Virus record (IMG/VR): IMGVR_UViG_2675903654_000020
Span: 1 to 32,559 of that record
DNA: 32,559 bases
Origin: a virus
Lineage: Duplodnaviria > Heunggongvirae > Uroviricota > Caudoviricetes
Direction: 5' to 3' (one strand)
The translations under genes and the position numbers were made by a program. Below, one piece after another: positions 1,794 to 32,283 of the stretch. How positions within the stretch are numbered: the stretch's first letter is position 1; each line of letters opens with the position of its first letter. The notes beneath the pieces were generated by a model. The model was not told the origin of the DNA, did no database searches, and saw only the letters and a list, made by a program, of their open reading frames with translations.

Positions 1794-2510
1794 TTAGATT
1801 ACTTTTACGCCTATAAAGGTGTAATCATCCATTATGTTTTTCTCAATCCTTTTTCTTAAACTGTTCGCAAAAGACGTCGGTGAGAGCATTGTTTTCTCAG
1901 AAAACCTTGGTCTGACATCCCAATGCTTATAAGCACCATCGGACATTGCATAAATTTGAAGAGAACCATTAAAAATTAGTTGATTAATCGGAAAAGACAT
2001 TAATTCAAAATTCAGCTCTGTTGTATTTGATAAAGCATTTGTTAGGATTGAAGATAAACGCTCTTTATGATTTCTTAAATTGCGCAATTTATGCTCACCA
2101 GAATCAAGAAGTTCTTGATACCTCGTTTGATCAGTAGTTAACTGATTTAATTTGTTGTTTTTATTAAAGTATACACGGCAATCACCGGAATGGCCAATTA
2201 ACACTTCATTTTTTTTGATATGAACAATTGTTAATGTTGTGGCAGTGCTAATATCTAAATTATCAATTTCTTTTTTAGCCGAATGAAATGCACTTTCAAT
2301 TGAGAAAAAGGAAGTGTCTAGCGCGTGTTTAATACCACGAATGGCAGCATGAGACGCAAGCATTGAATTTTCAGAGGAACCAACGCCATCAGCTACTGCA
2401 AAGACAATGTTAAAATCGCTATCAAAAGATGGCGGTAAATAAAAGTCTTCATTTTCTTTTTTTTGGGGTTGTTTTAGGCTAAAACAAGCCATTTCAATTA
2501 TGTTCTTCAT
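1794..2510 (-). CDS. PP2C-family Ser/Thr protein phosphatase (238 aa)
   Basis: PP2C-like motifs: VADGVGS metal-binding Asp/Gly motif, GHSGDCRVY, MSDGAY, C-terminal DD; ATG with GAGGT RBS; overlaps kinase stop by 17 bp; AT-rich codon usage. Confidence 0.75.
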   Translation of the reverse strand: MKNIIEMACFSLKQPQKKENEDFYLPPSFDSDFNIVFAVADGVGSSENSMLASHAAIRGIKHALDTSFFSIESAFHSAKKEIDNLDISTATTLTIVHIKKNEVLIGHSGDCRVYFNKNNKLNQLTTDQTRYQELLDSGEHKLRNLRNHKERLSSILTNALSNTTELNFELMSFPINQLIFNGSLQIYAMSDGAYKHWDVRPRFSEKTMLSPTSFANSLRKRIEKNIMDDYTFIGVKVI

Positions 2511-3288
2511 TATTTACCTCCCCCATCACTTTTAAAAAATCTTCCAATAACTCCTGTGCGCTCTGATATCGTTCTTCAGGCCAATGGGCGCAACATTTAG
2601 CAATCAATCTTCTTAATTTTTCACTTCTTTCTGTTGGATATATATCAGTGATAATTTTGCCTATAGCGAATATGTCGCTTTGGAAAGAAAAAAGACCGCT
2701 CTCATGTATTTCAGGTGCTCGATATCCGTCTGTACCCATGTGATTGGGCTTAAATTTTGTTTTGACTTCAGCCCGTAGGGTATCTCTATCTTTTACCAGG
2801 CCAAAATCAGATATCTTATATTTCCCATCGGCGTAATAAAGGATGTTTCCTGGTTTTAAATCACGATGTATGTAGTTGTTTTCATGTATGGTGATAATTC
2901 CTTTTAAAATCTGAATGACAGCAGACTTCCTCTCTGCGTCATTCATTCCATTGTTGATGGCTTCATATAAGTTACATTCTGCCAGCTCCATGACAAAATA
3001 AGGTTTATCACCATTTGTATTAAACAAAACTATTGGTGCTATTGAATCATAGTTTATTCTATTGAGTTTGCATTGTGTTTTGATCTCAACTAAAAAACGC
3101 TGTCTTAAATCAGCCAGCTCTTTTATGGCTGTGTTGTCAAAGTCCGGGCAAGGTGAAAAGTATTTGCGAGCATATGTGGTCACGTTGGTCTGGGCTAAAT
3201 TATAGACTTCAACCTTATATACTTCGCCAAACCCCCCTCGTCCTAAACTGCGACCATCTTTAAGTAAATAATTACCGCACCGATCCAC
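2494..3288 (-). CDS. Hanks-type (eukaryotic-like) Ser/Thr protein kinase, kinase domain only (264 aa)
   Basis: Gly-rich loop GRGGFGEV, conserved Lys in ARK, catalytic loop HRDLKPGN, DFG (SDFGL), APE (YRAPE); GTG start with GGGGG RBS; AT-rich. Confidence 0.8.
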   Translation of the reverse strand: MDRCGNYLLKDGRSLGRGGFGEVYKVEVYNLAQTNVTTYARKYFSPCPDFDNTAIKELADLRQRFLVEIKTQCKLNRINYDSIAPIVLFNTNGDKPYFVMELAECNLYEAINNGMNDAERKSAVIQILKGIITIHENNYIHRDLKPGNILYYADGKYKISDFGLVKDRDTLRAEVKTKFKPNHMGTDGYRAPEIHESGLFSFQSDIFAIGKIITDIYPTERSEKLRRLIAKCCAHWPEERYQSAQELLEDFLKVMGEVNNEEHN

Positions 3289-27243: not shown

Positions 27244-27920
27244 GCAAATACACCGAACTAATCACGAACTACCACGCCACCAAACCTAAATTTCTTGCGC
27301 ATGTTGATCTGATGACCCGGCCACTTATTGATGTTGCGGCTGCCACCAGAGGGCTGATTACTGCATTTGATATTGACTCTGCGGTTGGTGTGCAACTTGA
27401 CATTCTTGGATTGTGGATCGGACGTAGCCGTGTTGTCAGCCAGCCTATCTCAGGTGTCTATTTCAGCTGGGATACCGACGGGCTTGGATATGATCAGGGG
27501 GTATGGCAGGGACCATACGATCCTGATTCAGGATACATGTATCTCAGCGATGAAACTTATCGTGTCATTCTTAAAGCGAAGATTGCGATTAATAACTGGG
27601 ATGGACGGAATGATTCGCTTCCGGCAATTCTTGACGCTGCAACAGCAGGATCCGGGCTGCGAATGCAGATAGTCGATAACCAGGACATGACGATATCGGT
27701 CTGGGTCTTTCCTGATACTGATATTTCAGATGTATCGCGTGAGTTAATTGCGGCAATTAAACAGGGGTATCTCACAGTAAAAGCCGCCGGGGTATGGGCG
27801 GGTGGCATTGAAACACCTTCGGTGGAAACCCCATCGGAAGGCTCAAAATTTTTTGGTTTTGATATGGATAACGAATTCATCAGTGGCTTTGATGTAGGAG
27901 CATGGGGAGTATTACTCTGA
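27240..27920 (+). CDS. tail protein (Mu gp48 / P2 gpI-like, putative)
   Basis: ATGA-coupled 226 aa ORF immediately upstream of the tail fibre gene. Confidence 0.5.
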   Translation: MSKYTELITNYHATKPKFLAHVDLMTRPLIDVAAATRGLITAFDIDSAVGVQLDILGLWIGRSRVVSQPISGVYFSWDTDGLGYDQGVWQGPYDPDSGYMYLSDETYRVILKAKIAINNWDGRNDSLPAILDAATAGSGLRMQIVDNQDMTISVWVFPDTDISDVSRELIAAIKQGYLTVKAAGVWAGGIETPSVETPSEGSKFFGFDMDNEFISGFDVGAWGVLL

Positions 27921-29068
27921 TGGCGAAAAATGACTTTAAAGCGTTTGCAACGGATCGAAATGCCAATGTTATATCGCAGGAGGAATGGGAAGCGTTGCCC
28001 GCGCTTTTATCTGGATTTACAGCAGGGAAAGCCTCCAGTGCGCAAGTCAATAAGGTTATTCGGCAGGCCAGCTTTATTGCTGCAGCTCTGGCCCAGTTTG
28101 TAAGTGATAAAACGCAACGGGATGTGCTTGATAATGGTGATCTGCCCGGTTTTGTTGAATTGCTGGGATCGGGGTTTGCTGTTGAATACCTGAGCCGCAA
28201 GAATCCGTTTGGCGATATCAAATCGGACGGCACGGTGAAAACGGCTCTCGAAAATCTTGGTTTAGAAAGATGTGATCAGGACACTAACGAAACACGCATT
28301 TGGTCACCAGACAAAAAATCTTATGTTTTTGTGCAGAATGATGGATGGGGGGCATATTCAATAAATCCCCAGGCAGGGACTATTGCACTGCAATTATCAT
28401 CTGGCGGTACAGGTGCAAAAGATGCTGCCAGCGCGCGTAGTAATCTTGGTCTGGGAGATGTGGCAACGGAGAACACAGTACCTCTGTCTAAGGGGGGAAC
28501 TGGCGGGACTTCTCTGGCAGAAGCGCGTAGTAACCTTGGCGTCAATCGTTTAGTACAAGGCTTAGTTGACACATACATTACTTCACAAAGCGATAACTAT
28601 CGGCTGTTTGTGAATGATAGTGGTGCATGGGGCGTACTTAACAATATCGGAACGCCAATGGCTCTAGCGCTTAGTCAGGGCGGAACCGGCGCGACCACAG
28701 CTGCCGACGCACGAGCAAATTTAGGGCTTGGCTCAGCAGCAACAGCAAACCTGGGAAATGGGGCTAATCAGGTTCCGACAATGGCTAATTTCACATCAGG
28801 TCCTGGCTGGGTGAAATTTCCTGACGGCACCATCATGCAGTTTGGTACGAACATTTCAGGCTCTGCTGGCTACCCAACTGCTGTTAATTTCCCGATACCT
28901 TTTACCGATGATTATCGCGTCGCATGTTCTTTCGATACGCCAACCAGTGCAGAAGACTGCCCGGCATTCTCGACAAGTAAGATAAATAACTATGGTTTTT
29001 ATCTCGCGTCATCGCGTCAGGGGGCTGTCAAAGGAGCTGGTGCCAACTGGATAGCAATAGGAAGATAA
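27902..29068 (+). CDS. tail fibre protein (constant N-terminal part plus currently expressed variable C-terminal part)
   Basis: Three copies of a GGTG...AR.NLGLG motif typical of tail fibres; followed by tail fibre assembly gene; internal Gin-type crossover site at 28245-28270. Confidence 0.7.
   Translation: MGSITLMAKNDFKAFATDRNANVISQEEWEALPALLSGFTAGKASSAQVNKVIRQASFIAAALAQFVSDKTQRDVLDNGDLPGFVELLGSGFAVEYLSRKNPFGDIKSDGTVKTALENLGLERCDQDTNETRIWSPDKKSYVFVQNDGWGAYSINPQAGTIALQLSSGGTGAKDAASARSNLGLGDVATENTVPLSKGGTGGTSLAEARSNLGVNRLVQGLVDTYITSQSDNYRLFVNDSGAWGVLNNIGTPMALALSQGGTGATTAADARANLGLGSAATANLGNGANQVPTMANFTSGPGWVKFPDGTIMQFGTNISGSAGYPTAVNFPIPFTDDYRVACSFDTPTSAEDCPAFSTSKINNYGFYLASSRQGAVKGAGANWIAIGR
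28245..28270. repeat. left recombination site of invertible segment (gix/pix-like, weaker match)
   Basis: CTCTCGAAAATC-TT-GGTTTAGAAAGA resembles the Gin/Hin/Pin site consensus TTnTCnnAAACC-nn-GGTTTnnGAnAA; lies inside the tail fibre gene. Confidence 0.45.
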
Positions 29069-29070
29069 AA

Positions 29071-29508
29071 ATGAAATATTTATACGACGCAGTAACTAAC
29101 GCATTTTATCCATTAGCAATGCAGGCAGACTATGAGGCGGCAGGGATGTGGCCCGAAAAAGGCGTGGAAGTTGATGAAGAGACTTTTGTTGCATTTCAGA
29201 AGCCACCGGAGGGAAAAATGAGGATTGCGGGTGATGATGGTTATCCCGTATGGAGTGATATTCCGCCACTGGCACCTGAAGAACTGATAAAGATGGCAGA
29301 ATACGAGCGTCAGCGGCGCATAGATACTGCCAATGAGCACATGAATAACAGGCAATGGCCAGGTAAAGCAGCTATTGGTCGTCTGAAAGGTGAGGAACTG
29401 GCGCAATATAATTTGTGGCTGGATTATCTGGACGCACTGGAACTGGTTGATACCTCCAGTGCGCCAGATATTGAATGGCCTACGCCTCCGGCAGTTCAGG
29501 CAAGATGA
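29071..29508 (+). CDS. tail fibre assembly protein (Tfa / Mu U-like)
   Basis: 145 aa ORF directly after the fibre gene, AGGAAG RBS. Confidence 0.7.
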   Translation: MKYLYDAVTNAFYPLAMQADYEAAGMWPEKGVEVDEETFVAFQKPPEGKMRIAGDDGYPVWSDIPPLAPEELIKMAEYERQRRIDTANEHMNNRQWPGKAAIGRLKGEELAQYNLWLDYLDALELVDTSSAPDIEWPTPPAVQAR

Positions 29509-30073
29509 CATCCGGCGCGGTGCTGGTATCTGTTGCAGTCACCGCGTCAATGTAATCCAGCACGGCGTTAAGTCGGGTTGTTTCTGTCTGCGTCAGTTTA
29601 CGTGCGGCCTGCAATTTCAGCTGAATCAGACTGATGGAAGCCATTGCAGCATCAATCAGTGACTGACGCTGTGCTTCTGCCGCGTCTACTGCAGCGCTAT
29701 GCTGTGCATCAGTATCGGTCACCCATTTCTCACCATCCCATTTATCGTATGGCGTTAACGGTGAAAGCGTGACATAACCGTCTTTGATGGCACCGATATA
29801 ATCCACTGTAACAGCTGCGCCATTTTCGATTGAGTAAACAGTCTCATTGCGGTGGTCTTCTTCATGGCTCCATCCCTTACCCGTAAATACTGCCACTTTC
29901 CCCGGAATGTATTCGCCAGGGTCAATACCAGTGGAACAGGCGGGCATACTTACGCCAGTATTAATATATTCATCAGACCAGCCCGTATATTCATACGTTA
30001 CTGCATCATAATAAAAACAACGCATATCGCCCGGCACTGTAGCCAGCCCATTTTCATCAAAAACAGGTTTCAT
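29480..30073 (-). CDS. alternative tail fibre assembly protein (U'-like), inverted orientation
   Basis: 197 aa minus-strand ORF converging on and overlapping the + strand assembly gene by 29 bp. Confidence 0.65.
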   Translation of the reverse strand: MKPVFDENGLATVPGDMRCFYYDAVTYEYTGWSDEYINTGVSMPACSTGIDPGEYIPGKVAVFTGKGWSHEEDHRNETVYSIENGAAVTVDYIGAIKDGYVTLSPLTPYDKWDGEKWVTDTDAQHSAAVDAAEAQRQSLIDAAMASISLIQLKLQAARKLTQTETTRLNAVLDYIDAVTATDTSTAPDVILPELPEA

Positions 30074-30582
30074 TATTTAGCCCTTACTAAAAAGTTGAAT
30101 GCGATGTTACGGGGACGCGTTTCAGTACCGCCTGGGTTTTGAAAAGCGGGCAAAGCACTTCCACCCGGCTGACTAACGCCGCTGGTATATAATGGAGAAG
30201 CATTCGAAACGGTGCCAAACACTACATTACTGCCACTTCCATTTAGCCCTAAAAATTTATGCTCGTGCGTTTTGAAATCGTCTGATTGCGCGGAAAGTAA
30301 CGCACGGCCACTATCAACACCACGGCCATCATCCCAGATACGAATGAAATCACCGCGGGCTTCAGGTAATACCAGCGAAGGAAACACTTTTGCCAGCACA
30401 GGGTAATCAGAGGCAGAAAATTTCGCCCCGTTGAACTTCAAAAACACCATACTGGACCAGCTGTCGATTACAGTATTTGGCATTGCAGCGGACGGCCAGA
30501 AGAACGGAACGCCAATAGCTGGAGCACCTTCTCCCAAACCAACGTTTATGAAAATGCAGAAATAACAAGCAAATGGCATCAT
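30073..30582 (-). CDS. alternative tail fibre C-terminal segment (Sv'-like), silent in this orientation
   Basis: Minus-strand frame open up to 30603 without a credible start or RBS; its 5' end carries the gix-like site and encodes ..NVGLGEG.. matching the ..ENLGLE.. junction in the + fibre gene; stop overlaps the U'-like start. Confidence 0.55.
   Translation of the reverse strand: MMPFACYFCIFINVGLGEGAPAIGVPFFWPSAAMPNTVIDSWSSMVFLKFNGAKFSASDYPVLAKVFPSLVLPEARGDFIRIWDDGRGVDSGRALLSAQSDDFKTHEHKFLGLNGSGSNVVFGTVSNASPLYTSGVSQPGGSALPAFQNPGGTETRPRNIAFNFLVRAK
30529..30554. repeat. right recombination site of invertible segment (gix/pix-like, strong match)
   Basis: TTCTCCCAAACC-AA-CGTTTATGAAAA matches the Gin/Hin/Pin site consensus; located just upstream of the invertase gene. 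Confidence 0.6.
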
Positions 30583-30608
30583 TCCTGCTTTTACCAGGGG
30601 GATTTAAC

Positions 30609-31162
30609 ATACTTATTGGCTATGTACGCGTATCAACAAATGACCAGAACACCGATCTGCAACGTAATGCACTGAACTGCGCGGGATGTGAGCGGGTTTT
30701 TGAGGATAAAATCAGTGGCACTAAGTCCGACAGACCGGGGCTTAAAAAACTGCTCAGGACACTATCGGCAGGAGACACTCTGGTTGTCTGGAAGCTGGAC
30801 AGGTTGGGGCGCAGTATGCGGCATCTTGTTACGCTGATAGAAGAGTTGCGTCAGCGTGGCGTGAATTTCCGAAGCCTGACTGACAGTATTGATACCAGCA
30901 CCCCAATGGCCGTTTCTTTTTTCATGTCATGGGTGCCCTGGCTGAAATGGAGCGTGAACTGATTGTTGAACGAACAAAAGCTGGACTGGAAGCTGCTCGC
31001 GCACAGGGACGAATTGGCGGTCGCCGTCCCAAACTTTCATCAGAACAATGGGCGCAGGCCGGGCGACTAATTGCATCAGGAGTTCATCGCCAGAATGTGG
31101 AGATCATCTATGATGTTGGCGTATCGACTTTGTATAAGAAGTTTCCGGTCGGAGATAAATGA
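30609..31162 (+). pseudogene. serine DNA invertase (Pin/Gin/Cin family), apparently disrupted: canonical start replaced by ATA and 1-bp frameshift near 30908
   Basis: N-terminal part ..IGYVRVSTNDQNTDLQRNAL..VWKLDRLGRSM.. ends in frame 0 at 30962; C-terminal part ..MGALAEMERELIVERTKAGL..GRIGGRRPKL.. continues in another frame (30929-31162); a missing G in the GGG run at 30908-30909 explains the shift. Confidence 0.65.
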
Positions 31163-31491: not shown

Positions 31492-31626
31492 TATCTGTTA
31501 AAAGCCAGAAGCATTTCCTTCGCTGACTTTATAGTCAACCATAACACACACTCTACTGTCTGAGTCCAGCGTTTTTTAACATTCTTGTTAAGATTATGTG
31601 ATCTTTAGCGCGGGAGGAAAATATTG

Positions 31627-32283
31627 ATGAAACAGCCTGCGCCCGTTTATCAGAGAATTGCGGGTCATCAATGGCGACATATCTGGCTTTCTGGCGATAT
31701 ACACGGTTGTCTTGAGCAGTTGCGCCGCAAATTATGGCATTGTCGTTTTGATCCGTGGCGAGATTTACTTATCTCAGTGGGAGACGTTATCGATCGTGGG
31801 CCGCAAAGTTTACGTTGTCTGCAGTTACTGGAACAACATTGGGTTCGTGCGGTAAGAGGCAATCATGAACAGATGGCGATGGATGCGCTGGCATCCCAGC
31901 AGATGTCTTTGTGGTTGATGAATGGCGGCGACTGGTTTATTGCGCTGGCAGATAATCAACAGAAACAAGCGAAAACGGCGCTGGAAAAATGTCAGCATTT
32001 GCCCTTTATTCTTGAAGTACACAGCCGCACCGGCAAACATGTTATTGCTCATGCCGATTATCCAGATGATGTTTATGAATGGCAAAAGGACGTTGATTTG
32101 CATCAGGTCTTGTGGAGCCGCTCACGATTAGGTGAACGCCCAAAAGGGCAGGGAATTACAGGTGCTGATCATTTCTGGTTTGGTCATACACCGTTGCGAC
32201 ATCGCGTGGATATTGGCAACCTGCATTATATTGATACCGGTGCTGTCTTTGGGGGCGAACTGACTCTTGTGCAATTGCAATAA
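31627..32283 (+). CDS. pphA: serine/threonine protein phosphatase 1 (PPP family, lambda-phosphatase-like), host gene
   Basis: PPP motifs GDIHG, GDVIDRG, GNHE; protein matches my recollection of E. coli PphA (218 aa); ATG 31627 with GGGAGGA RBS. Confidence 0.8.
   Translation: MKQPAPVYQRIAGHQWRHIWLSGDIHGCLEQLRRKLWHCRFDPWRDLLISVGDVIDRGPQSLRCLQLLEQHWVRAVRGNHEQMAMDALASQQMSLWLMNGGDWFIALADNQQKQAKTALEKCQHLPFILEVHSRTGKHVIAHADYPDDVYEWQKDVDLHQVLWSRSRLGERPKGQGITGADHFWFGHTPLRHRVDIGNLHYIDTGAVFGGELTLVQLQ

What the first reader, a model, noticed from the sequence alone, without database searches (positions are those of the whole stretch)
30573..31162. The invertase that should drive the switch appears inactivated (lost start codon plus 1-bp frameshift)
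The protein is clearly Pin/Gin/Cin-like, but the canonical start reads ATA (30609), giving ..N-I-L-I-G-Y-V-R-V.. An in-frame upstream ATG at 30573 would add a 12-aa extension but has a poor RBS. After ..SLTDSIDTSTPM the frame shifts: the expected GRFFFHVMGALAEMEREL continues only in another frame (30929-31162). One missing G in the GGG run at 30908-30909 explains it. Either the fibre switch is frozen in this orientation, or it relies on another invertase in trans, or these are homopolymer sequencing errors.
Basis: partly seen in the sequence, partly recalled or inferred. Interest (0 to 1): 0.55.

Follow-up and report, generated by a model that had tools for sequence, protein, structure and literature searches.

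The report
Dead pinE invertase gene in prophage
The gene that should flip this E. coli prophage's tail-fibre switch is a genuine, inherited pseudogene with a lost start codon and a 1-base deletion, an ordinary finding already flagged as 'frameshifted' in public annotations of sister strains.

Summary
The Pin/Gin-type gene at 30609-31162 reads ATA where relatives read ATG. It also lacks one G at 30908-30909, which splits it into a catalytic-domain ORF (30573-30962) and an E-helix/HTH ORF (30929-31162).

Neither lesion is a sequencing error:
- The deletion allele is in 16 complete E. coli genomes, including ETEC H10407 and O103:H2 12009, and on at least 1000 public contigs.
- The exact ATA-plus-deletion ORF is in at least 6 independent assemblies, all beside pphA.
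- An otherwise identical intact 61-mer is about ten times commoner (152 records), so the deletion is derived.
- RefSeq already annotates the same lesion as "pinE, frameshifted".

The switch architecture survives. The right crossover site is perfect, and in-silico inversion gives an in-frame 274-aa alternative fibre plus its chaperone.

Two O103:H2 strains carry the same frameshifted pinE with 100%-identical flanks. They hold the segment in opposite orientations, so such switches still flip, most plausibly through other invertases in trans (PinQ/PinR precedent).

In this window the left crossover site is degenerate. It belongs to a fibre cassette otherwise seen in prophages without an invertase, so this copy is probably locked. 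Ordinary; low interest.

The parts
30609..31162 (+). pinE-type DNA invertase pseudogene; the repaired reading gives 184 aa
   Evidence: Repaired protein matches Mu Gin over residues 1-181 (E=4e-92). PGAP annotates the 99.9%-identical COL60J copy as 'pinE, frameshifted'.
30609..30611 (+). Lost start codon, ATA in place of ATG (G->A at 30611)
   Evidence: K-12 e14 pinE is identical over 30572-30650 except for this base. Among 5426 complete genomes only COL60J shares it over the full 79 nt. It is present in at least 6 other assemblies.
30573..30962 (+). ORF1, 129 aa: upstream in-frame ATG, catalytic domain to Met100, then a 17-aa out-of-frame tail
   Evidence: PF00239, residues 15-116. The exact protein is on record in several assemblies.
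30908..30909 (+). Site of the 1-bp deletion: GG where intact alleles have GGG (ATG-GGC-CGT)
   Evidence: Exact frameshift 60-mer in 16 records; repaired 61-mer at 100% in 152 records.
30929..31162 (+). ORF2, 77 aa, -1 frame: helix E remainder plus HTH_7 DNA-binding domain
   Evidence: PF02796, 1.7e-11. The exact 77-aa protein is on 36 contigs.
30917..30923 (+). T_TTT_TTC heptamer in frame 0. It is an incidental slippery-like motif formed by the ancestral Phe-Phe-Phe codons.
   Evidence: Read from the sequence. The same T-run is in the intact allele. No downstream structure (z=0.15).
31099..31101 (+). GAG (Glu) where the intact relatives examined have Ala (V-A-I/L-I); seen here only in frameshift-allele copies
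   Evidence: Weak sign of further decay. The neighbouring P->H and K->N changes also occur in the intact NCTC9022 gene and are not counted as decay.
30529..30554 (+). Right crossover site TTCTCCCAAACC AA CGTTTATGAAAA (core 30541-30542)
   Evidence: Identical in every related locus examined. It contains the published e14 repeat CCTTCTCCCAAACCAA.
28245..28270 (+). Degenerate left crossover site CTCTCGAAAATC TT GGTTTAGAAAGA (core 28257-28258)
   Evidence: Five of 26 bases differ from the CTCTCGAAAACCTTGGTTTGGGAGAA found in five of the loci examined (L002, L003, L004, L006, L008); L005 differs from that sequence by one base. Homology to relatives breaks here. The same junction occurs in prophages with no right-site match and no invertase annotated in the stretch examined. 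No inverted repeat of 14 nt or more links it to the right site.
27902..29068 (+). Expressed tail-fibre gene, 388 aa: constant part to about 28257, then a rare variable cassette
   Evidence: (Gp53-like_C). The cassette covers at least 80% of the query in only 3 of 5426 genomes.
29071..29508 (+). Tail-fibre assembly chaperone for the expressed cassette
   Evidence: Caudo_TAP, 5.8e-33
29480..30073 (-). Silent alternative tail-fibre assembly chaperone, 197 aa, intact
   Evidence: (Caudo_TAP, 2.2e-24)
30073..30540 (-). Silent alternative fibre C-terminal cassette (Sv'), an intact reading frame
   Evidence: In-silico inversion of 28257-30542 fuses it in frame to the constant part, giving a 274-aa fibre. 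The same cassette is in the expressed orientation in L016.

Best explanation
This is a real, vertically inherited pseudogene of the e14-type DNA invertase gene pinE. It sits at the right end of a contractile-tailed prophage inserted next to pphA in an E. coli chromosome. Two independent lesions kill it. The older, widespread one is a 1-bp deletion (GGG->GG) at codon 101, which separates the catalytic domain from helix E and the DNA-binding domain. The younger, lineage-specific one is ATG->ATA at the start codon. The prophage therefore cannot drive its own tail-fibre switch. The switch layout is otherwise that of the Mu G / P1 C / e14 P segments: constant fibre part, crossover site, two convergent fibre-tip plus chaperone cassettes, crossover site, invertase. 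The silent cassette is still open and would fuse in frame. In relatives with two good crossover sites the segment still flips although their pinE carries the same frameshift, most plausibly through invertases of other prophages acting in trans. In this window the left-hand cassette, including the inner half of the left crossover site, is of a kind otherwise seen in prophages without an invertase. Only a degenerate site is left, so this copy is most likely locked in its present orientation. Shown: the lesions, their recurrence in independent assemblies, the derived status of the deletion, the inversion between O103:H2 strains, the degenerate left site. Inferred: trans-complementation, and the locked state of this copy.
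For: Lesions and domain split. Derived deletion: the exact frameshift 60-mer is in 16 records and the repaired 61-mer in 152 records at 100%. Real allele: it is present in ETEC H10407 and O103:H2 12009; the ATG-start 117-aa ORF1 is on at least 1000 contigs; the exact 129-aa double-lesion ORF1 is in at least 6 assemblies, all next to pphA. The ATA is one base away from K-12 e14 pinE. RefSeq annotates it as 'frameshifted'. Switch anatomy and in-frame alternative fibre. Inversion despite the frameshift: L014 versus L015 have flanks 100% identical over 3163 and 5680 nt and a 1877-nt segment precisely inverted at 99.9%. Trans action has published precedent: PinQ/PinR invert the e14 P segment, and PinE complements gin and hin (PMC12529663). 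Degenerate left site of a type seen without an invertase.
Against: No reads from this strain were examined, so mixed orientation in the culture cannot be excluded. Three short-read contigs of sister assemblies end exactly at the right crossover site, which could mean mixed orientation as well as repeats. Natural crossover sites of this family tolerate divergent half-sites, and the left site keeps the TT core and AAA-C/GGTTT flanks, so it may still be usable by a trans invertase. Whether the O103:H2 genomes hold an intact second invertase was not checked; only the counts of 2 and 3 pin-like places were seen. ATA is not an absolute null start, and a T_TTT_TTC motif sits just after the deletion.
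Confidence: 0.85

Rival explanations
1. The switch in this window is not frozen. It still flips at a low rate because another serine invertase elsewhere in the genome (a second Pin/Gin-like gene or a PinQ/PinR type) acts in trans on the perfect right site and the degenerate left site.
For: O103:H2 12009 and 129 show a clean inversion with the same frameshifted pinE. 2999 of 5426 E. coli genomes hold a pin-like place, up to 7 per genome. PinQ/PinR invert the e14 P segment in trans. The silent cassette and its chaperone are still intact ORFs. The left site keeps the matching TT core. Sister contigs break at the crossover site.
Against: The left site differs from the consensus at 5 of 26 positions, 4 of them in the inner half that is normally an exact inverted repeat of the right site. 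The same junction is found in prophages without an invertase. No genome was found with this left cassette in the inverted position. In K-12, a pinE deletion leaves the P segment locked under ordinary conditions.
Confidence: 0.3
2. The frameshifted gene is still weakly functional. A -1 ribosomal slip, or a one-U transcriptional insertion, on T_TTT_TTC (30917-30923) would rejoin the frames. The product would be a full-length Pin with Ala-Val-Ser in place of Gly101-Arg102-Phe103. This would explain why the allele is so common and why its carriers still invert.
For: A canonical X_XXY_YYZ heptamer lies in frame 0, 8 nt after the deletion and before the frame-0 stop. The allele is on at least 1000 contigs with ORF2 still open. 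Inversion occurs between O103:H2 carriers.
Against: The heptamer is just the ancestral Phe-Phe-Phe codons and is present in the intact allele. The intact allele is about ten times commoner among complete genomes. There is no stimulatory structure downstream (z=0.15) and no Shine-Dalgarno-like run upstream, as read from the sequence. The product would change three residues at the start of helix E. In this window the start codon is lost as well. Trans-complementation explains the inversions without it.
Confidence: 0.05
3. Both lesions are homopolymer or base-calling errors of this assembly, and the gene is intact in the cell.
For: The deletion lies in a short G run next to a T run, a context prone to errors on some platforms.
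Against: The identical deletion is in 16 complete genomes from different laboratories and on at least 1000 contigs. The exact ATA-plus-deletion protein is in at least 6 independent assemblies and in COL60J. ATG->ATA is a substitution, not a homopolymer error.
Confidence: 0.03

Closest known systems
PinE and the P segment of cryptic prophage e14 (E. coli K-12)
   Same: The 79 nt around the start are identical to K-12 apart from the start-codon base. The right crossover site is the same and contains the published repeat CCTTCTCCCAAACCAA. The layout is the same: fibre constant part, two convergent fibre-tip/Tfa cassettes, invertase. Among the sequences aligned, the repaired protein is closest to e14-type Pin proteins.
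   Different: The gene here has no ATG and is frameshifted. It lies in a full-length prophage next to pphA, not in e14 at icd. The body of the gene is a different allele, shared with prophages at the yfhH/tadA site. The left site and left cassette are of a type seen without an invertase.
Gin and the G segment of phage Mu; Cin and the C segment of P1; Hin and the H segment of Salmonella
   Same: It is the same small serine recombinase family (E=4e-92 to Gin structures 3UJ3/4M6F). The logic is the same: a switch that swaps tail-fibre C-termini and their chaperones. By established knowledge, and as cited in PMC12529663, these invertases can substitute for each other.
   Different: Those are active genes; this one is a pseudogene. 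The tail module here is neither Mu nor P1 (Pfam content).
The same 'pinE, frameshifted' pseudogene in RefSeq genomes (COL60J MF546_RS10380, ETEC H10407 ETEC_RS14785, O103:H2 12009 ECO103_RS16250)
   Same: The 1-bp deletion is identical. COL60J also has the ATA and is 99.9% identical over 751 nt at the same pphA site.
   Different: H10407 and the O103:H2 copies keep ATG and have consensus left and right sites at another chromosomal site. COL60J has an IS3 element in its fibre gene and another left cassette.
PinQ/PinR of Qin and Rac acting on the e14 P segment (Kirigo et al., NAR 2025, PMC12529663)
   Same: It is a precedent for an invertible fibre segment driven by invertases encoded in other prophages. 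This is the mechanism inferred for carriers of the frameshift allele.
   Different: No pinQ/pinR-like gene is in this window, and the rest of the genome is not available. Trans action is inferred here, not shown.

Membership tests
Hin/Gin/Cin/Pin DNA invertases (small serine recombinases) | N-terminal resolvase catalytic domain with the Y-V-R-V-S-T active-site serine motif | tested here: met
   PF00239 at E=5e-37 in ORF1. The motif LIGYVRVSTNDQ is identical to Gin.
Hin/Gin/Cin/Pin DNA invertases (small serine recombinases) | C-terminal HTH_7 DNA-binding domain joined to the catalytic domain through helix E in one polypeptide | tested here: not met
   HTH_7 (1.7e-11) is present, but only in ORF2 in the -1 frame. 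The break falls at Gly101, the start of helix E.
Hin/Gin/Cin/Pin DNA invertases (small serine recombinases) | A usable start codon at the conserved M-L-I-G-Y N-terminus | tested here: not met
   ATA at 30609-30611. K-12 e14 and all other loci aligned except COL60J (L001, which shares the ATA) have ATG.
Hin/Gin/Cin/Pin DNA invertases (small serine recombinases) | Close sequence relationship to characterised members | tested here: met
   The repaired protein aligns with Mu Gin over residues 1-181 at E=4e-92 and differs from K-12 PinE at only a few positions. By descent it is a member; by function it is a pseudogene.
Invertible tail-fibre segment (Mu G / P1 C / e14 P type) | Two 26-bp crossover sites in inverted orientation with matching 2-bp cores | tested here: inconclusive
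   The right site is perfect. The left site keeps the TT core but has 5 of 26 mismatches to the relatives' left site. No inverted repeat of 14 nt or more was detected.
Invertible tail-fibre segment (Mu G / P1 C / e14 P type) | Two convergent fibre-tip plus chaperone cassettes, each giving an in-frame fibre after inversion | tested here: met
   Current state: a 388-aa fibre plus a 145-aa Tfa. In-silico inversion gives a 274-aa fibre plus a 197-aa Tfa.
Invertible tail-fibre segment (Mu G / P1 C / e14 P type) | Fis-dependent recombinational enhancer in cis within the 5' part of the invertase gene | not tested
   No Fis-site scan was made. In the alignment only two base differences from the L002 allele are visible in the 5' part of the gene: the start codon and codon 30. 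That allele is the one carried by the O103:H2 strains that show an inversion. The enhancer is therefore inferred to be intact.
Invertible tail-fibre segment (Mu G / P1 C / e14 P type) | The segment is found in both orientations | not testable with these tools
   No reads are available for this strain. In relatives it is found: O103:H2 12009 versus 129. L016 carries the window's silent cassette in the expressed orientation.
Programmed -1 ribosomal frameshift | Slippery X_XXY_YYZ heptamer in the zero frame within the overlap | tested here: met
   T_TTT_TTC at 30917-30923
Programmed -1 ribosomal frameshift | Stimulatory downstream structure or upstream Shine-Dalgarno-like element | tested here: not met
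   The downstream 80 nt fold no better than shuffles (z=0.15). No GGAGG-like run is seen in the 20 nt upstream.
Programmed -1 ribosomal frameshift | The two-frame arrangement is the conserved state of the gene family | tested here: not met
   The single-frame allele with the same flanks is in 152 records against 16. All characterised relatives are single ORFs.

The most novel reading that the evidence does not exclude
The 1-bp-deletion allele of pinE, present on at least 1000 public contigs, is not dead. It is kept because low-level -1 slippage on the T_TTT_TTC run just after the deletion makes a full-length Pin with three changed residues at the start of helix E. That would give a throttled, rarely firing invertase and would account for the inversions seen between O103:H2 carriers. 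In this window the extra ATG->ATA change would throttle it further.
Probability: 0.05. Interest if true: 0.5.

Novelty: already known. Interest (0 to 1): 0.15.

Why it matters
It matters little beyond correct annotation. The gene should be called a pinE pseudogene, not two small 'recombinase' and 'HTH' genes as several gene callers have done. The tail-fibre switch of this prophage should be treated as unable to flip on its own.

Two points are mildly useful. A single frameshift allele of pinE has spread widely through recombination between prophages at different chromosomal sites. Carriers of it still show clean inversions, which is natural-population support for the recently published idea that prophage invertases work across prophages in one cell.

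Tried and rejected
- Extra decay in the DNA-binding domain. I first read P->H, K->N and A->E as post-inactivation damage. The intact NCTC9022 PinE has H and N too, so only A->E remains, and weakly.
- Programmed frameshift. The heptamer is there, but there is no stimulatory structure and the intact allele predominates. I kept it only as a low-probability rival.
- Left crossover site. I searched with the right site at up to 3 and then 7 mismatches and found nothing in the window. The site was located only by alignment to the relatives' left site. My first coordinates were off by one base and gave an out-of-frame fusion, corrected.
- The window's left cassette in the inverted position. I looked for it in other genomes. 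Only 3 genomes have the cassette, and none has it next to an invertase.
- Sequenced phages carrying this allele. The top-ranked full-length matches are 72-89% identical. The 39 records in the 95-99% identity band are not among the 30 rows listed and were not inspected.
- A second recombinase in the window. None was found among the 28 larger ORFs scanned with Pfam.
- The second pin-like place in O103:H2 12009. I did not manage to locate it, because the search tool shows only the best place per record.

Full report
**What is in the sequence**

The stretch 30573-31162 was read and translated. ATA lies at 30609-30611 and is followed by LIGYVRVSTNDQ..., the conserved N-terminus of the Pin/Gin/Cin/Hin invertases.

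An in-frame ATG at 30573 adds MASFLLLPGGFN. It is preceded by AAATAACAAGCAA, which has no Shine-Dalgarno-like run.

Frame 0 runs through ...DSIDTSTPM, then reads AVSFFMSWVPWLKWSVN and stops at 30962. GRFFFHVMGALAEMEREL...STLYKKFPVGDK continues in the -1 frame, whose listed ORF is 30929-31162.

Inserting one G after 30908 restores a 184-aa protein. It aligns with Mu Gin (PDB 3UJ3, 4M6F) over residues 1-181 at E=4e-92. Pfam finds the resolvase catalytic domain in ORF1 and HTH_7 in ORF2.

**Where it sits**

Downstream lie pphA (31624-32283) and yebW, so the window is E. coli chromosome with a prophage ending next to pphA. The prophage encodes:
- a Q-like antiterminator, a holin, a terminase and a portal;
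- a Mu-F-like head protein and a major capsid protein;
- homologues of contractile-tail sheath and tube families, a spike, baseplate J and a wedge protein.

The last 3.3 kb has the classic layout of an invertible tail-fibre segment:
- the fibre gene at 27902-29068 (+);
- a fibre assembly gene at 29071-29508 (+);
- a second assembly gene at 29480-30073 (-);
- a second fibre C-terminal cassette at 30073-30540 (-);
- the invertase gene.

**Are the lesions real?**

The 60 nt around the frameshift occur exactly in 16 records of the 5426-genome collection. These include ETEC H10407 and O103:H2 12009.

The same sequence with GGG restored occurs at 100% in 152 records. They include intact genes in P2-like and e14-like prophages. 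The deletion is therefore a derived, minority allele of an otherwise identical intact gene.

The ATG-start truncated ORF1 (117 aa) is on at least 1000 public contigs.

The 79 nt around the start are 100% identical only in COL60J. They are one base, ATG versus ATA, away from K-12 e14 pinE.

The exact 129-aa product carrying both lesions is encoded in at least 6 further assemblies from different samples, all next to pphA. RefSeq already marks the COL60J, CS6L, 2011C-4251, H10407 and 12009 copies as 'frameshifted' pseudogenes.

Sequencing error is thus essentially excluded. The order of events is clear: first the deletion, which is shared by prophages at two chromosomal sites and by mosaic genes such as CS6L's; then the start-codon change, found only in the pphA lineage.

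**Further decay?**

All frameshift-allele copies read Q-N-V-E-I-I where the intact relatives examined read Q-K-V-A-I-I or similar. The window also has His in place of a Pro. The intact NCTC9022 gene has His and Asn too. Only the Ala->Glu change (31099-31101) is confined to frameshift copies in my sample, which is a weak sign at best.

**The switch itself**

The right crossover site, TTCTCCCAAACC AA CGTTTATGAAAA (30529-30554), is identical in every related locus examined. It contains the repeat published for the e14 P segment.

Five of the related loci examined have the left site CTCTCGAAAACC TT GGTTTGGGAGAA about 325 nt into the fibre gene, and a sixth, L005, differs from it by one base. The window has CTCTCGAAAATC TT GGTTTAGAAAGA at 28245-28270. 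That is five mismatches, four of them in the inner half that normally mirrors the right site. No inverted repeat of 14 nt or more joins the two ends.

Homology to the relatives stops exactly here. The cassette that follows (about 28264-29330) covers most of the query in only three other genomes. Two of those were examined (strains 33-6 and A41). In both, the same junction sequence and cassette are followed by a DinI gene and chromosomal genes. There is no right-site match, and no invertase is annotated in the stretch examined.

The left end of the segment therefore looks replaced, by ordinary recombination, with a fibre type otherwise seen without an invertase.

Even so, in-silico inversion between the two cores (28257-30542) joins the constant part in frame to the silent cassette. 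It gives a 274-aa fibre followed at once by the 197-aa chaperone. The silent genes are still intact.

**Does a frameshifted pinE mean a frozen switch?**

Not in general. O103:H2 strains 12009 and 129 carry the same prophage at the yfhH/tadA site. Their flanks are 100% identical over 3163 and 5680 nt, and both have the frameshifted pinE. The 1877 nt between the crossover sites are precisely inverted at 99.9% identity.

Among the 15 prophages of this type listed, the cassette annotated next to pinE differs between strains. This is consistent with both orientations being present.

L016 (SRR6940354), which has the double-lesion allele next to pphA, carries the window's silent cassette in the expressed orientation with a consensus left site. 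At 95.6% identity this reflects mosaic history rather than a recent flip.

The simplest explanation is invertases supplied by other prophages:
- 2999 of 5426 genomes have at least one pin-like place, up to 7;
- 12009 and 129 have 2 and 3 pin-like places;
- PinQ and PinR of Qin and Rac have been shown to invert the e14 P segment;
- PinE complements gin and hin (PMC12529663).

I could not check whether the extra copies in the O103:H2 genomes are intact.

**A functional frameshift?**

Eight bases after the deletion, frame 0 reads T_TTT_TTC (30917-30923). A -1 slip there would rejoin the frames and give Ala-Val-Ser for Gly101-Arg102-Phe103. Four points argue against it:
- the run is just the ancestral Phe-Phe-Phe codons and is in the intact allele too;
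- the downstream 80 nt fold no better than shuffles (z=0.15);
- no Shine-Dalgarno-like element lies upstream;
- the single-frame allele predominates.

I keep this as a 5% reading.

**Verdict**

This is a genuine pinE pseudogene with two lesions, already annotated as such in sister genomes. The prophage cannot flip its own fibre switch.

Because the left crossover site is also degenerate, this copy is probably locked with the rare 388-aa fibre expressed. A trans invertase using the degenerate site cannot be excluded (about 0.3).

This is an ordinary result. The only mildly notable points are the wide spread of one frameshift allele and the natural evidence for cross-prophage inversion.

Noticed in passing
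window 1794-3288 (-): Adjacent genes for a PP2C-like phosphatase (238 aa) and a eukaryote-type Ser/Thr protein kinase (264 aa) in the early or accessory region of the prophage. They are possibly a phage-exclusion or host-modulation pair.
   Followed up: no
window 28434-28459: A second crossover-like motif inside the expressed fibre gene: CGCGTAGTAATC TT GGTCTGGGAGAT. Its inner half matches the crossover half-site at 10 of 12 positions, and it lies in the same reading frame (S-N-L-G-L-G-D). A third N-L-G-L-G motif lies near 28717. These could be relics of, or substrates for, alternative inversions.
   Followed up: no
window 28264-29330: The expressed fibre-tip cassette and the start of its chaperone gene are rare. 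Only 3 of 5426 complete E. coli genomes cover at least 80% of the query. In the two genomes examined, the cassette sits in prophages with no invertase annotated nearby.
   Followed up: partly
L018, L019, L020 (contig ends at window 30529-30537): Three short-read assemblies that carry the same double-lesion pinE have contigs ending exactly at the right crossover site. This is expected either from repeated fibre cassettes or from mixed orientations in the sequenced culture.
   Followed up: no
L014 versus L015 (O103:H2 12009 and 129): There is a precise 1.88-kb inversion between the crossover sites, with 100%-identical flanks. Both strains carry the frameshifted pinE. This is natural evidence for inversion without a working cognate invertase.
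   Followed up: partly
L001 2618-3846 (COL60J): The closest complete-genome relative has an IS3-family element inserted in the fibre gene and yet another variant of the left junction (CTCTCTCAAATC TT GGTTTAAAAGAA). The fibre module is decaying in that strain as well.
   Followed up: no
window 30696-30698 (codon 30 of pin): At codon 30 the window has Val and the O103/H10407 frameshift copies have Phe, whereas the intact relatives examined have Ile. Two different replacements at one codon within the frameshift lineage are compatible with relaxed constraint, but the sample is too small to test this.
   Followed up: no
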